Below, piece after piece: positions 34,954 to 37,149 of a stretch of DNA of 43,717 bases. Position 1 is the first letter of the stretch. The number at the start of each line of letters is the position of its first letter. Under the pieces are notes generated by a model, which saw only the letters and a list, made by a program, of their open reading frames with translations, searched no databases and was not told the DNA's origin. The translations under genes and the position numbers were made by a program. The stretch is from Patescibacteria group bacterium (lineage in GTDB: Bacteria > Patescibacteriota > Saccharimonadia > CAILAD01 > GCA-016700035), in contig JAUPVH010000001.1 in assembly GCA_030917125.1 (NCBI GenBank), forward strand, positions 1-43,717, in the 5' to 3' direction.

Positions 34954-37149
34954 ATGAGTAAGGCCAATTACGATCCCTCGGCAACCGAGGCCAAATGGCG
35001 TGCGGTTTGGGATAAGTCGAAAATATACGCGACGCCAGAAAATCCCAAGCGCCCATATTATAATCTCGTGATGTTCCCATATCCATCGGGCAACTTGCAT
35101 GTTGGGCATTGGTATAATTTTGCGCCAGCCGATACACTCGGACGGTTTGAGCGGATGCGTGGCAAAGATGTATTGCAACCACTCGGCTATGACGCCTTCG
35201 GTTTGCCGGCTGAGAATGCGGCAATTAAAAATGGTATTCCAGCGGATGAGTGGACCGATAAAAATACTGTCAGTTTTTATGAGCAGTACAAAACGCTGGG
35301 TGGGATGTATGACTTAGGTCGCTTGGTAAATACCTCCAAACCAGAGTATTACAGGTGGACGCAATGGTTGTTCTTGCAGCTGTATCATGCCGGTAAAGCG
35401 GTGCGCCGCGATGGCACGGTCAACTGGTGCCCGAGTTGTCAGACCGTGCTCGCCAACGAGCAGGTTGTACATGGTGAGTGCGAACGCTGTGGCACAACAG
35501 TCGAGCGTAAAAATCTCAAGCAATGGTATTTTACGATTACCGATTACGCCGATCGTTTGCTCGATGATTTAGATGGGCTCGATTGGCCGGAACGAGTTAA
35601 GCAACAACAGCGCAACTGGATTAGTCGTAGCGAAGGTGCACGCATCGAGTTTACATTGTATGGCAAAGACGAAACGCTCGAGGTATTTACTACTCGTCCG
35701 GATACCATTTTTGGCGCCACCTTTATGGTCGTCGCACCTGAACATCCTTTGGTTGCAGAGCTCACTACTGACAAGCAGCGCGCTGAAGTTGAGCAGTACC
35801 AGCAGTGGGCTGGCGCTCGTACCGATGTTGATCGTATGGAGGCCAAAGAAAAAACTGGCGTGTTTACTGGCGGCTACGTAGTGAACCCGGCAAATGCCGA
35901 AAAAATCCCGGTGTGGGTGGCAGACTATGTGCTGATGGGCTACGGCACTGGTGCCATTATGGCTGTACCAGCCCATGATGAGCGCGACCATGCTTTCGCG
36001 AAGAAATACAATCTACCGATCATTGAGGTTATTGAGCCGGTAACAGGTAAGCATCAGGATAATCCTGAGCACCGTAAGAGTATTGTGGCCTTGGTGCATA
36101 ATCCGCGTACCGACGAAGTTTTAGTGATTAACTGGGGCGCCAAGCAGGGTGGTCATCTTTTGGTGGGTGGTGGTCGTGAGGCGGATGAAGACATTACCGC
36201 TTGTGCAACTCGAGAAGTGATCGAAGAAACAGGCTATACTGGCCTGAAATATATTGGTCAGACCGGCAAAATCCACCATCATTACTTTGCGCACTCTAAG
36301 GGTAAAGCTCGGCACATCGAAGCTGTTGGAGTGCATTTTGAACTCGTTGATAATGAGAAAATCGAAACCAAACTAGAGCGAGATGAGGTTGGGAAGTTTA
36401 GTGTGGAATGGAAGCCAGCCCGCGAAGTTGAAACGATGCTGCAGGATGAGCTGCATAAATACGTGTTTGATGCGTTCTTGCGACAAAATATTCATGCCGG
36501 CACGGGTGTGATGATTAACTCTGGTAAGTTTGATGGCCTGAAAAGTACCGAGGCAAAAAGCCAGATAGTTGCCTGGCTGCATAAAGGTGGTTTTGGTAAA
36601 GCCACCACCAACTACCGGCTGCGTGATTGGCTGATTTCTCGCCAGCGTTACTGGGGCGCGCCAATTCCGATGATTTACTGCGAAGAATGTGGCGTAGTGC
36701 CGGTACCAGAAAAAGATCTGCCGGTTGTTCTACCAGTTGGGCAGGAGTTCGATAAGACTGGCCGCTCACCATTGCACACGCATCCGGATTACGCAAAAGT
36801 TGACTGTCCGCAGTGCGGCAATGCCGATGCTCGCCGCGAGACGGATACCATGGATACATTCGTAGATTCCAGCTGGTACTTTTTGCGCTACCCAAATCCG
36901 AACTATGACAAGGCGGCGTTTGATCCAGAAGCTGTTAAGAAGTGGCTGCCCGTCGATCGTTACATGGGTGGTGTGGAGCACGCTATTTTACATCTTTTGT
37001 ACTCGCGTTTTATTACTAAGTTCTTGCATGATCAAAAGCTCGTAGCTTTTGATGAGCCATTCACCAAGCTAATTAATCAGGGAATGATTCTTGGCCCAGA
37101 TGGTAATAAAATGAGTAAGTCTAAGGGTAACGTTATTGACCCGCTGTAG
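34954..37149 (+). CDS. leuS: leucyl-tRNA synthetase, N-terminal 731-aa fragment (Rossmann fold, CP1 editing domain with inserted Nudix domain, KMSKS), ending at an in-frame TAG
   Basis: PYPSGNLHVGH (HIGH), TTRPDTIFGATF, AVPAHDERD, RQRYWGAPIP and KMSKSKGN. The -10 tataat (34941-34946) is 7 nt from the ATG. Confidence 0.9.
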   Translation: MSKANYDPSATEAKWRAVWDKSKIYATPENPKRPYYNLVMFPYPSGNLHVGHWYNFAPADTLGRFERMRGKDVLQPLGYDAFGLPAENAAIKNGIPADEWTDKNTVSFYEQYKTLGGMYDLGRLVNTSKPEYYRWTQWLFLQLYHAGKAVRRDGTVNWCPSCQTVLANEQVVHGECERCGTTVERKNLKQWYFTITDYADRLLDDLDGLDWPERVKQQQRNWISRSEGARIEFTLYGKDETLEVFTTRPDTIFGATFMVVAPEHPLVAELTTDKQRAEVEQYQQWAGARTDVDRMEAKEKTGVFTGGYVVNPANAEKIPVWVADYVLMGYGTGAIMAVPAHDERDHAFAKKYNLPIIEVIEPVTGKHQDNPEHRKSIVALVHNPRTDEVLVINWGAKQGGHLLVGGGREADEDITACATREVIEETGYTGLKYIGQTGKIHHHYFAHSKGKARHIEAVGVHFELVDNEKIETKLERDEVGKFSVEWKPAREVETMLQDELHKYVFDAFLRQNIHAGTGVMINSGKFDGLKSTEAKSQIVAWLHKGGFGKATTNYRLRDWLISRQRYWGAPIPMIYCEECGVVPVPEKDLPVVLPVGQEFDKTGRSPLHTHPDYAKVDCPQCGNADARRETDTMDTFVDSSWYFLRYPNPNYDKAAFDPEAVKKWLPVDRYMGGVEHAILHLLYSRFITKFLHDQKLVAFDEPFTKLINQGMILGPDGNKMSKSKGNVIDPL
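36034..36504 (+). other. Nudix-hydrolase domain inserted inside the LeuRS editing (CP1) domain
   Basis: About 157 residues lie between LPIIEVI and GVMINSGKFDGL, where E. coli and B. subtilis (from memory) have about 13-20. A perfect Nudix box GGREADEDITACATREVIEETGY (Gx5Ex7REVxEExGY) lies at 36169-36237. Confidence 0.8.

What the first reader, a model, noticed from the sequence alone, without database searches (positions are those of the whole stretch)
36034..36504. Nudix-hydrolase domain inserted into the CP1 editing domain of leucyl-tRNA synthetase
Other bacterial LeuRS have a short linker between the conserved AVPAHDERD...LPIIEVI segment and the G-x-x-x-NSG-x-F-x-GL segment. From memory that linker is about 13 residues in B. 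subtilis and about 18 in E. coli. This protein has about 157 residues there, including a perfect Nudix box GGREADEDITACATREVIEETGY (Gx5Ex7REVxEExGY, nt 36169-36237) within a region of Nudix-domain size. The insert has the same base composition as the rest of leuS, so it is not a recent cassette. I know of no described aminoacyl-tRNA synthetase with an internal Nudix domain. Mechanistically it could hydrolyse aaRS side-products (Ap4A or related dinucleotides), mis-activated aminoacyl-adenylates or nucleotide-derived signalling molecules, or it could be a degenerate structural module. All of this is speculative.
Basis: partly seen in the sequence, partly recalled or inferred. Interest (0 to 1): 0.8.

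Follow-up and report, generated by a model that had tools for sequence, protein, structure and literature searches.

The report
Nudix hydrolase domain nested inside LeuRS
The leucyl-tRNA synthetase of this ultra-small (Patescibacteria/CPR) bacterium really does carry a complete, apparently active Nudix hydrolase domain in a surface loop of its proofreading domain, an architecture that is widespread in CPR bacteria and that I found described in no paper.

Summary
leuS (34954-37815, +) holds a 152-157-residue insert (nt 36034-36504) where Thermus LeuRS has a 13-residue loop. The insert scores 52 bits on Pfam NUDIX (cut-off 21), has a perfect Nudix box at 36169-36237, and folds in AlphaFold2 (pLDDT 93) into a Nudix fold with 514 significant PDB matches.

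It is not a one-off. The same insert sits in frame in LeuRS of 26 GTDB species (Saccharibacteria and other CPR) and in 56 of 57 metagenome loci. About 100 of the 150 nearest 50%-identity clusters are LeuRS. The catalytic residues are invariant or at least 90% conserved, and dN/dS is about 0.04.

It is accessory. A syntenic ortholog with 89% core identity lacks it, and at least 11 presence/absence changes occur among 103 close LeuRS.

Relatives carry two or three Nudix copies at three sites around CP1. Free-standing CP1+Nudix proteins exist, one in a DPANN archaeon.

The substrate is unknown. The weak nearest families are NudB, RppH, YtkD and MutT, which act on tri- or polyphosphate substrates. 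Hydrolysis of Ap4A-type by-products is plausible but unproven.

Eight literature searches found no description. I rate it a new variant of a known kind, with moderately high interest. Separately, leuS in this contig has a singleton in-frame TAG at 37147.

The parts
34954..37149 (+). leuS, N-terminal reading frame (731 codons plus TAG). It holds the catalytic core with HIGH (HVGH, nt 35098-35109) and KMSKS (nt 37108-37122), the CP1 editing domain and the nested Nudix domain.
   Evidence: The AF2 model has pLDDT 89.8 and pTM 0.81 and matches bacterial LeuRS structures 2v0c, 6q8b and 4aq7.
35611..36033 (+). CP1 editing domain, part before the insert (aa 220-360). The editing motifs are intact: TTRPDT at nt 35689-35706 and AVPAHDERD at nt 35962-35988.
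   Evidence: Pfam PF13603 covers aa 220-369, profile positions 1-149 of 185. T246, T247, R248, D250, T251, H341 and D342 are at least 90% conserved in 115 sequences.
36034..36504 (+). Nested Nudix hydrolase domain (aa 361-517).
   Evidence: Pfam NUDIX scores 52.3 bits. The AF2 domain model has pLDDT 93.3. Foldseek gives 514 PDB hits at E<=1e-3, and the 50 best listed are all Nudix proteins. The nucleotide-level indel against the Nudix-less syntenic ortholog L028 is window 36044-36557.
36169..36237 (+). Nudix box GGREADEDITACATREVIEETGY (Gx5Ex7REUxEExGU).
   Evidence: A strict box is present in 26 of 26 genome loci. E, T and G are invariant, and R, E, E, G and Y are at least 90% conserved in 81 sequences.
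36271..36300 (+). Subfamily-specific motif IHHHYFAHSK. It lies at the end of the strand after the Nudix helix and in the following hairpin, the position of the substrate-specifying 'X-loop'.
   Evidence: I80, H81, H82, Y84, F85 and A86 are invariant in 20 inserts. Secondary structure is from the model. A broader [FY][FY]A[AH][HS]K motif occurs across the subfamily. The X-loop concept is from PMC5389931.
36505..36588 (+). CP1 editing domain, part after the insert (GVMINSGKFDGL... helix).
   Evidence: Aligns to T. thermophilus LeuRS residues 378-423.
37147..37149 (+). In-frame TAG that interrupts leuS 24 codons after KMSKS.
   Evidence: The codon is CAG (Gln) in the nearest relatives L001 and L002. 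The other full-length members of the 90% cluster are 953 aa and uninterrupted.
37153..37818 (+). leuS, C-terminal reading frame in the same frame (220 codons from GTG). It holds the anticodon-binding and C-terminal domains.
   Evidence: Pfam Anticodon_1 scores 90.5 bits. The alignment with full-length relatives is continuous.

Best explanation
This is a bacterial-type LeuRS from a Saccharibacteria-like CPR bacterium with its aminoacylation and editing machinery intact. A roughly 150-residue Nudix pyrophosphohydrolase domain is nested in a variable surface loop of the CP1 editing domain, equivalent to T. thermophilus residues 365-377. The domain folds independently and enters and leaves CP1 at adjacent points. 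It keeps every residue of the metal-binding and catalytic Nudix box, plus a subfamily-specific motif (IHHHYFAHSK) at the X-loop position. I therefore infer an active hydrolase with a defined substrate. The insert is a vertically inherited but often lost accessory module of CPR LeuRS, and it is not needed for leucylation. The most likely chemistry is hydrolysis of a nucleotide with a tri- or polyphosphate chain. My preferred candidate is adenine dinucleoside polyphosphates (Ap4A/Ap3A-type side-products of the adenylate reaction) or related adenylylated species made next to it. Shown here: the domain identity, fold, position, conservation, distribution and dispensability. Inferred: that it is catalytically active (about 0.75). 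Speculative: the Ap_nA-type substrate (about 0.25-0.3).
For: Domain and fold. Position in the CP1 loop. The editing and synthetic motifs are intact. The Nudix box is intact in 26 of 26 species spanning 43-90% identity and in 81 aligned sequences. dN/dS is about 0.04 for the insert and about 0.014 for the rest of the gene. The subfamily is concentrated in LeuRS: 100 of the 150 best cluster representatives. Of the 57 best metagenome loci, 56 are full-length LeuRS. Dispensability: the syntenic ortholog L028/P0175 has 89% core identity and no insert, and at least 11 presence/absence changes occur on a neighbour-joining (NJ) tree. The link to CP1 goes beyond hitch-hiking. Insertions occur at three sites, all in or at the edges of CP1, with two or three copies in some proteins. 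Free-standing CP1+Nudix proteins also exist. Substrate class: the nearest NCBIfam families are consistently NudB, RppH, YtkD and MutT, though all score far below cut-off. The best PDB sequence hit is a plant Ap4A hydrolase. An invariant aromatic residue occupies the X-loop region, where a Tyr marks Ap_nA hydrolases. A nested single domain argues for a monomeric Nudix type.
Against: No substrate can be assigned. Foldseek hits mix ADP-ribose, Ap4A, NTP, RNA-5'-end and inositol-pyrophosphate enzymes at 11-23% identity. The PDB and NCBIfam sequence matches are weak and mostly confined to the Nudix box. Frequent loss among close relatives argues against a role tied tightly to LeuRS catalysis. So does the occurrence of the same subfamily stand-alone, in RNase PH and in a GNAT/M17-peptidase protein. 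No LeuRS core residue co-varies with presence of the insert. I had no access to model coordinates or predicted aligned error (PAE), so the geometry relative to the editing and synthetic sites is unknown.
Confidence: 0.55

Rival explanations
1. The domain is a generic 'house-cleaning' Nudix enzyme (MutT-, NudB-, ADP-ribose- or NADH-type pool sanitation). It has merely been nested into a tolerant loop of an essential, highly expressed protein in genome-reduced CPR cells. There is no mechanistic link to LeuRS or tRNA.
For: Presence and absence are patchy among near-identical orthologs. The same subfamily occurs stand-alone and inside unrelated proteins. Other domains (ASCH, unknown domain X) occupy a nearby CP1 site. 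No co-adapted core residues were found.
Against: Two thirds of the nearest clusters of this Nudix subfamily are in LeuRS. All three insertion sites are in or at the edges of CP1. CP1+Nudix also survives as a free-standing two-domain protein, even where the editing residues have decayed.
Confidence: 0.3
2. The domain is RNA-directed, like RppH, YtkD or NudC. It would remove pyrophosphate or a nucleotide cap (5'-ppp, NAD, Np4A) from the 5' end of tRNA or another RNA held by the host protein.
For: RppH is matched by 20 of 20 inserts and YtkD by 19 of 20, weakly. RppH structures appear among the Foldseek hits. The hosts are tRNA-end-binding enzymes: LeuRS CP1, and RNase PH in P0094. An RNA-binding-type ASCH domain sits at CP1 site A in P0278.
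Against: All scores are far below family cut-offs (about 17-25 bits against 103-154). No RNA-binding groove could be examined. Mature tRNA 5' ends are normally monophosphates. NudB and MutT, which act on small molecules, match equally well.
Confidence: 0.12
3. The domain is a non-catalytic structural, ligand-sensing or regulatory module, like the Nudix domains of NrtR or TRPM2, and modulates LeuRS editing or aminoacylation.
For: Some copies in multi-Nudix LeuRS have degenerate boxes. In P0008 copy A2 the R is replaced by A, and in P0017 copy A2 by K. Nested domains can act as allosteric switches.
Against: In this protein and in all 26 genome loci the full catalytic box is intact. The catalytic Glu and Arg residues are invariant or at least 90% conserved in 81 sequences. 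Known sensor Nudix domains have degenerate boxes; this last point is from my general knowledge.
Confidence: 0.08

Closest known systems
Canonical bacterial LeuRS (T. thermophilus 1H3N/2V0C/2BYT, E. coli 4AQ7/4ARC, N. gonorrhoeae 6Q89)
   Same: The domain order is the same: Rossmann core with HIGH and KMSKS, the ZN-1 zinc-binding module, the CP1 editing domain with the T-rich and AHD motifs, and an anticodon-binding domain. Identity is 38-45% and Foldseek E-values reach 1e-72.
   Different: None of the solved LeuRS structures has a domain in the loop equivalent to Thermus residues 365-377. Here 152 residues forming a Nudix fold replace 13.
Monomeric Nudix hydrolases acting on tri- or polyphosphate substrates (RppH/NudH, YtkD, NudB, MutT, Ap4A hydrolases such as A. 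aeolicus 3I7U and Lupinus 1F3Y)
   Same: The Nudix box, the alpha/beta/alpha fold and the domain size (about 130-150 aa) are shared. These are the most consistent, though weak, profile matches.
   Different: Identity is 11-23%. All NCBIfam scores are far below the curated cut-offs. The domain has its own X-loop motif (IHHHYFAHSK). It is nested inside another enzyme rather than free-standing.
Class Ia synthetases with an extra enzymatic domain, e.g. IleRS with a GNAT domain (NCBIfam NF040702, ileS_w_GNAT)
   Same: It is a precedent for a class I aaRS fused to an unrelated small-molecule enzyme domain. The family appears in the NCBIfam list.
   Different: The added domain is different (an acetyltransferase). 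I did not examine the position of that domain in IleRS. No Nudix-containing aaRS family exists among the NCBIfam hits.
Free-standing editing-domain paralogs (AlaX, YbaK/ProX, ThrRS-ed; from general knowledge)
   Same: The free-standing CP1+Nudix proteins (P0001, P0004/L007, L089 and others) are synthetase-derived editing domains that live as separate genes.
   Different: They derive from LeuRS CP1, and I know of no described free-standing family of that origin. They carry a nested Nudix, and several have lost the editing-site Thr and Asp residues.
Split LeuRS of Aquifex aeolicus (alpha/beta subunits; PDB 3O0A 'LeuRS subunit alpha')
   Same: In this contig leuS is also divided into two same-frame ORFs of 731 and 220 codons.
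   Different: Here the break is a single TAG at a position that is CAG in close relatives. It occurs in only one of the members of the 90% cluster, and no ribosome-binding site is evident. It is most likely an error or a private nonsense mutation, not an evolved split.

Membership tests
Bacterial leucyl-tRNA synthetase (TIGR00396 leuS_bact) | Whole-protein profile score above the curated cut-off | tested here: met
   806.8 bits against a cut-off of 548.4, for the N-terminal 731 aa alone.
Bacterial leucyl-tRNA synthetase (TIGR00396 leuS_bact) | HIGH and KMSKS class I signature motifs | tested here: met
   HVGH is at aa 49-52 and KMSKS at aa 719-723 in the translation.
Bacterial leucyl-tRNA synthetase (TIGR00396 leuS_bact) | CP1 editing domain with the T-rich motif and the conserved Asp | tested here: met
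   PF13603 scores 223.9 bits. TTRPDT and PAHDERD are present and at least 90% conserved among relatives.
Bacterial leucyl-tRNA synthetase (TIGR00396 leuS_bact) | Single uninterrupted reading frame including the anticodon-binding domain | tested here: not met
   There is an in-frame TAG at 37147-37149. The anticodon-binding domain (PF08264) lies in the following same-frame ORF. The break is a singleton among close relatives.
Nudix hydrolase superfamily (Pfam PF00293) | Profile match above the gathering threshold over most of the domain | tested here: met
   52.3 bits against 21.1, covering profile positions 2-124 of 134.
Nudix hydrolase superfamily (Pfam PF00293) | Nudix box Gx5Ex7REUxEExGU | tested here: met
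   GGREADEDITACATREVIEETGY at nt 36169-36237. The box is conserved in 26 of 26 loci.
Nudix hydrolase superfamily (Pfam PF00293) | Alpha/beta/alpha Nudix fold | tested here: met
   The AF2 model has pLDDT 93.3. Foldseek gives 514 PDB hits at E<=1e-3. The top hit is 2azw with TM-scores 0.69/0.76.
Nudix hydrolase superfamily (Pfam PF00293) | Metal-dependent pyrophosphohydrolase activity | not testable with these tools
   Requires biochemistry.
Ap4A/Ap_nA-hydrolase subfamily of Nudix enzymes | Conserved Tyr in the X-loop downstream of the Nudix box that stacks on adenine (PMC5389931) | tested here: inconclusive
   An invariant Tyr (aa 444, 16 residues after the box) lies at the end of the following strand. 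I could not check structural equivalence to human NUDT2 Tyr87 because no coordinates were available.
Ap4A/Ap_nA-hydrolase subfamily of Nudix enzymes | Specific sequence or structure similarity to characterised Ap4A hydrolases | tested here: inconclusive
   1f3y is the best PDB sequence hit, but only at E=7e-4 and only over the box. 3i7u ranks eighth in Foldseek among enzymes of many specificities.
RppH/YtkD RNA pyrophosphohydrolases (NCBIfam NF001938, TIGR02705) | Score above the curated cut-off | tested here: not met
   16.7 and 18.7 bits against cut-offs of 116 and 154.
Intein or other self-splicing or mobile insertion | Hint or homing-endonuclease domain, with a Cys/Ser/Thr at the start of the insert and His-Asn at its end | tested here: not met
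   Pfam reports no such domain in the insert. The junctions read VI/EPVTG and HAGT/GVM. The insert folds as a Nudix domain.

The most novel reading that the evidence does not exclude
CP1 and Nudix may form a functional two-domain unit, a previously unrecognised synthetase-associated quality-control or signalling module. In this reading the adenosine/tRNA-3'-end-binding CP1 domain presents or senses a substrate that the Nudix domain cleaves. Candidate substrates are Ap4A or other adenylylated by-products of LeuRS, or a capped or triphosphorylated tRNA end. This would explain three things. Nudix domains have been inserted repeatedly (one to three copies, three sites) only in or around CP1. The unit survives as free-standing CP1+Nudix proteins in CPR bacteria and in a DPANN archaeon, even after the editing residues decay. 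It also recruits further partner domains (ASCH, unknown domain X).
Probability: 0.2. Interest if true: 0.85.

Novelty: new variant of a known kind. Interest (0 to 1): 0.68.

Why it matters
Aminoacyl-tRNA synthetases are known to acquire extra domains that give them new functions. A hydrolase domain nested inside the proofreading domain of a bacterial synthetase has not, as far as I can find, been described. Here it is common across a whole bacterial radiation (CPR/Patescibacteria) whose biology is poorly understood and whose members lack most nucleotide and amino-acid biosynthesis. If the Nudix domain destroys Ap4A-type alarmones or other adenylate-derived by-products where they are made, it would be the first physical coupling of alarmone synthesis and degradation within a single synthetase. 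If it acts on tRNA ends, it would be a new kind of tRNA quality control. Natural Nudix-plus and Nudix-minus orthologs at about 89% identity, together with the free-standing CP1+Nudix proteins, provide ready-made controls for experiments. There is also an annotation consequence. NCBI names some of these proteins only 'class I tRNA ligase family protein'.

Tried and rejected
1. Substrate assignment from sequence. The PDB profile search and the NCBIfam scans gave only weak, sub-threshold matches centred on the Nudix box.

2. Substrate assignment from fold. Foldseek hits mix many specificities at 11-23% identity.

3. Gene context of a stand-alone relative, P0156. The neighbours are uninformative.

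4. Search for LeuRS core residues that co-vary with presence of the insert. The best column is next to the junction and the rest follow phylogeny. I found no evidence of co-adaptation.

5. Intein or mobile-element explanation. Rejected, because there is no Hint domain, no splice-junction residues and a clean Nudix fold.

6. Stop-codon recoding as an explanation of the in-frame TAG. Rejected. TAG ends 8 of 30 ordinary ORFs in the window, and close relatives have CAG at that position.

7. Evolved split LeuRS, as in Aquifex. Unlikely, because the break is a singleton in its 90% cluster.

8. Complementary stand-alone Nudix in the Nudix-less relative. L028 has a 135-aa Nudix gene between nusB and rnc. 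It is only 25% identical to the insert, and the window ends before the equivalent region, so no conclusion is possible.

9. Pfam search of the unknown domain X found at CP1 site A of relatives. No hit even at E<=10.

10. Geometry of the Nudix active site relative to the editing and synthetic sites. This could not be done, because model coordinates and PAE are not exposed.

11. Eight literature searches and three paper look-ups found no description of a Nudix-containing synthetase.
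Full report
**1. What is in the window**

The ORF at 34954..37149 (+) and the same-frame ORF at 37153..37815 together encode a bacterial-type leucyl-tRNA synthetase of 954 codons. 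It is interrupted by one in-frame TAG at 37147-37149.
- The N-terminal piece alone scores 806.8 bits on NCBIfam TIGR00396 (leuS_bact, cut-off 548.4).
- It contains the Pfam LeuRS editing domain (PF13603, 223.9 bits) and class I catalytic domains.
- The downstream piece carries the anticodon-binding domain (PF08264).
- The HIGH motif (HVGH), KMSKS, the editing-site T-rich motif (TTRPDT) and the conserved Asp (PAHDERD) are all present.

The window is an entire 43,717-bp contig of an NCBI MAG labelled 'Patescibacteria group bacterium'. The two pieces are deposited as MDQ5943972.1 and MDQ5943973.1.

**2.

Residues 361-517 (nt 36034-36504) match Pfam NUDIX PF00293. The score is 52.3 bits (E=7.6e-14, gathering cut-off 21.1) over profile positions 2-124 of 134.

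The box GGREADEDITACATREVIEETGY lies at nt 36169-36237, exactly as reported. It is the only strict Nudix-box match in all six frames, and 200 shuffles gave none.

Against T. thermophilus LeuRS, the flanks align to residues 302-364 and 378-423. So 152 residues replace a 13-residue loop of the editing domain. In A. aeolicus the loop is about 7 residues. In the closest Nudix-less ortholog it is 14.

GC content is 0.482 in the insert and 0.501 in the rest of the gene.

**3. It is a real, complete Nudix fold**

AlphaFold2 on the 731-residue N-terminal product, with a 115-sequence alignment, gave mean pLDDT 89.8 and pTM 0.81. Blocks within the insert have pLDDT between 84 and 97. The whole model matches bacterial LeuRS structures (2v0c, 6q8b, 4aq7; E down to 2e-72), and none of them has a domain at this position.

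A separate model of aa 357-521 gave pLDDT 93.3 and pTM 0.88, with the strand-helix-strand layout expected of a Nudix domain. Foldseek against the PDB returned 514 matches at E<=0.001, and the 50 best listed are all Nudix proteins.

Those matches span many specificities at only 11-23% identity. They include an uncharacterised E. faecalis protein, ADP-ribose pyrophosphatases, Ap4A hydrolase 3i7u, NudB, NudI, RppH, MutT1 and the diphosphoinositol polyphosphate phosphohydrolase DIPP. The fold is therefore certain, but the substrate is not.

**4. It is a family, not a curiosity**

- *Species genomes.* A pattern scan of one genome per GTDB species found 26 species with a relative of the insert at 43-90% identity. 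Most are labelled Saccharibacteria, Saccharimonadales, Parcubacteria, Moraniibacteriota, Uhrbacteria, Paceibacteria or Patescibacteria. A few carry Gammaproteobacteria labels that I could not verify.
- *Position.* In 25 of the 26 loci the match lies in frame, some 65 residues after the P[AG]H[DNS] editing motif. My motif pattern did not find that motif in L023. The strict Nudix box is intact in 26 of 26. Full-length LeuRS ORFs contain the match, except in L005 (cut by the contig end), L007 (see section 7) and L026 (interrupted).
- *Nearest LeuRS.* The 120 best LeuRS homologs were listed, and I aligned 102 of the full-length ones. Of these, 70 carry the Nudix at this site and 32, about 805 aa long, do not.
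- *Exhaustive search.* An HMMER search of 1.84 billion cluster representatives with the insert found only 199 clusters at E<=0.001. By BLAST classification, 100 of the best 150 are LeuRS or LeuRS fragments with an embedded Nudix.
- *Metagenomes.* A metagenome scan gave 56 full-length LeuRS ORFs (944-1399 codons, GC 0.28-0.59) among the 57 best loci.

**5. Selection**

In 20 aligned inserts the invariant positions include the whole catalytic core (E52, R60, E61, E64, E65, T, G, Y). They also include a second block, I-H-H-x-Y-F-A.

In 81 sequences reaching down to 25% identity, one catalytic Glu, the first Glu of the EE pair, and T and G are invariant. R, the remaining Glu residues, G and Y are at least 90% conserved.

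Between the window and its two closest species-level relatives, the insert has dN about 0.06 and dS above 1.5, giving omega about 0.04. The rest of the gene has omega about 0.014. dS is saturated, so these are rough values.

The conserved IHHHYFAHSK block lies at the end of the strand after the Nudix helix and in the following hairpin. This is the 'X-loop' region where Nudix specificity motifs reside, including the Tyr associated with Ap_nA hydrolases (PMC5389931).

I infer a catalytically active domain with a defined, conserved substrate.

**6. It is accessory and evolutionarily labile**

P0175, P0177 and P0182 are 87-89% identical to the window's LeuRS core, yet they lack the Nudix. More distant relatives at 71-83% core identity have it.

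The P0175 locus (L028) is syntenic (ddl, a Mur ligase, a C39-like peptidase, leuS, then a TrmB-like gene). It is collinear with the window at 72-80% nucleotide identity. The leuS indel maps to window 36044-36557 against 82 nt in L028.

On a neighbour-joining (NJ) tree of 103 LeuRS cores, at least 11 presence/absence changes are required.

Pairwise identity of the Nudix domain correlates only moderately with that of the core (r=0.41; mean 51% against 62%). Some lineages carry very divergent Nudix versions at the same site (core 71-75%, Nudix 26-42%). The domain is therefore not needed for leucylation.

**7. The link to CP1 looks more than accidental**

- *Several sites and copies.* Relatives carry Nudix domains at three sites. 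Site A is at the N-terminal edge of CP1 (after window aa ~236-240). Site B is the one in this window. Site C is at the C-terminal edge (after aa ~538-547). Some proteins have two copies (P0017, P0029, P0211) or three (P0008, P0019), confirmed by Pfam.
- *Other domains at site A.* Site A can instead hold an ASCH domain (P0278). In P0169-P0172, L004 and P0282 it holds an unknown ~110-residue domain with a PGFWNEY motif. That domain also occurs fused to a Nudix of this subfamily in the free-standing protein P0036.
- *Free-standing CP1+Nudix proteins.* Proteins of 270-350 aa exist that consist of a reduced CP1 domain with the nested Nudix and nothing else.
  - P0001 is a complete gene on its contig (L029:940-1752).
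  - L089:3995-4822 has both Pfam domains and sits among CYTH, HAD and histidine-phosphatase genes.
  - P0004 is L007:5632-6570 in an 875-kb chromosome labelled Aenigmatarchaeota. Its archaeal nature is supported by a neighbouring fibrillarin gene (277 bits).
  - In several of these proteins the editing-site Thr and Asp residues have decayed, while the Nudix box is intact.
- *The counter-evidence.* The same Nudix subfamily also occurs stand-alone (P0010, P0155-P0157). It is nested in RNase PH (P0094) and occurs in a GNAT/M17-peptidase protein (P0057).

**8. Mechanism**

*Shown here:* an intact LeuRS with an independently folding Nudix domain nested in a CP1 surface loop.

*Inferred, about 0.75:* the domain is an active pyrophosphohydrolase.

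*Substrate class.* The most consistent profile neighbours are NudB and RppH (20 of 20 inserts each), YtkD (19 of 20), NudE (12) and MutT (10). All score far below cut-off. These are monomeric enzymes acting on tri- or polyphosphate chains. A nested single domain also argues for a monomeric type, not a domain-swapped ADP-ribose-type dimer.

*Preferred candidate.* Synthetases make Ap4A-type dinucleotides from the aminoacyl-adenylate, which is general knowledge. RppH/NudH-type enzymes cleave both Ap_nA and RNA 5' ends. I therefore favour local hydrolysis of Ap_nA or related adenylylated by-products, at about 0.25-0.3.

*Rivals.*
- Unrelated house-cleaning hitch-hiker: about 0.3.
- RNA or tRNA 5'-end pyrophosphohydrolase or decapping enzyme: about 0.12.
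- Non-catalytic module: about 0.08.

None of these can be settled without biochemistry.

**9. Known or new**

Eight full-text searches found no paper describing a synthetase with a Nudix domain. They combined LeuRS, aminoacyl-tRNA synthetase, CP1, CPR, Patescibacteria and Saccharibacteria with Nudix. A comprehensive 2017 review of the Nudix clan does not contain the words tRNA or synthetase.

The architecture is visible in automated annotation, as PF13603 plus PF00293 in the precomputed domain lists. Some NCBI records are named only 'class I tRNA ligase family protein'.

The held library lacks most subscription-journal papers, so a prior description cannot be excluded.

I classify this as a new variant of a known kind: a synthetase with an acquired accessory domain.

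**10. Side finding: the in-frame TAG**

The TAG at 37147 corresponds to CAG (Gln) in the two closest species and to CCA in a third. TAG is an ordinary stop codon in this contig, ending 8 of 30 ORFs.

The other full-length members of the same 90% cluster are uninterrupted 953-aa proteins.

The break is therefore a private nonsense mutation or a consensus error of this MAG. It is not recoding and not an evolved split enzyme.

Noticed in passing
window 37147-37149: An in-frame TAG splits leuS into a 731-codon ORF and a 220-codon ORF in the same frame. The codon is CAG in the nearest relatives. The break is unique among the full-length members of the 90% cluster. TAG is a normal stop elsewhere in the contig. 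It is probably an assembly error or a private nonsense allele in an essential gene.
   Followed up: yes
L007:5632-6570 (CP066684.1), L029:940-1752, L089:3995-4822; proteins P0001, P0004, P0009, P0014, P0018, P0024, P0099, P0130, P0153: These are free-standing 270-350-aa proteins made only of a reduced LeuRS-type CP1 editing domain with a nested Nudix domain. One lies in a DPANN archaeal chromosome next to a fibrillarin gene. Several have lost the editing-site Thr and Asp residues but keep the Nudix box.
   Followed up: partly
proteins P0008, P0019 (three Nudix); P0017, P0029, P0211, P0274 (two); loci L056, L068: These LeuRS relatives have two or three Nudix domains spread over three insertion sites in or at the edges of CP1: after window aa ~240, ~362 and ~540. 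Some copies have degenerate boxes.
   Followed up: partly
P0169-P0172, L004, P0282 (site A, after window aa 240); P0036: An unknown ~110-residue domain (motifs PGFWNEY, FIFK, DPW) is inserted at the N-terminal edge of CP1 in close relatives. The same domain is fused N-terminally to a Nudix of this subfamily in a free-standing 282-aa protein. No Pfam match was found even at E<=10.
   Followed up: partly
P0278 (aa 247-344): An ASCH domain (PF04266, an RNA-binding PUA-like fold) is inserted at CP1 site A of a Nudix-less LeuRS that is 69% identical to the window's core.
   Followed up: no
P0094 (519 aa); P0057 (1318 aa): The same Nudix subfamily is nested inside RNase PH, between the RNase_PH and RNase_PH_C domains. 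It also occurs in a GNAT-Nudix-GNAT-Peptidase_M17 multidomain protein.
   Followed up: no
window 34243-34914: A 223-aa ORF lies directly upstream of leuS. By eye it looks methyltransferase-like, but I did not run a profile search on it. It is absent from the otherwise collinear Nudix-less relative L028, where the C39-like peptidase gene abuts leuS.
   Followed up: partly
window 37950-38550: A high-GC island (0.60-0.68, against 0.50 for the contig) covers the 180-aa ORF 37925..38467 just downstream of leuS. A homologous region in L028 aligns at about 77% identity.
   Followed up: no
L028:18196-18603: The Nudix-less relative has a stand-alone 135-aa Nudix gene between nusB and the RNase III gene. 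It is only 25% identical to the LeuRS insert. The window ends before the equivalent region, so a complementary distribution could not be tested.
   Followed up: partly
P0171, P0191 versus P0207, P0217: In these examples, NCBI names the Nudix-containing LeuRS 'class I tRNA ligase family protein' and the Nudix-less ones 'leucine--tRNA ligase'. The insert may be interfering with automated naming.
   Followed up: no
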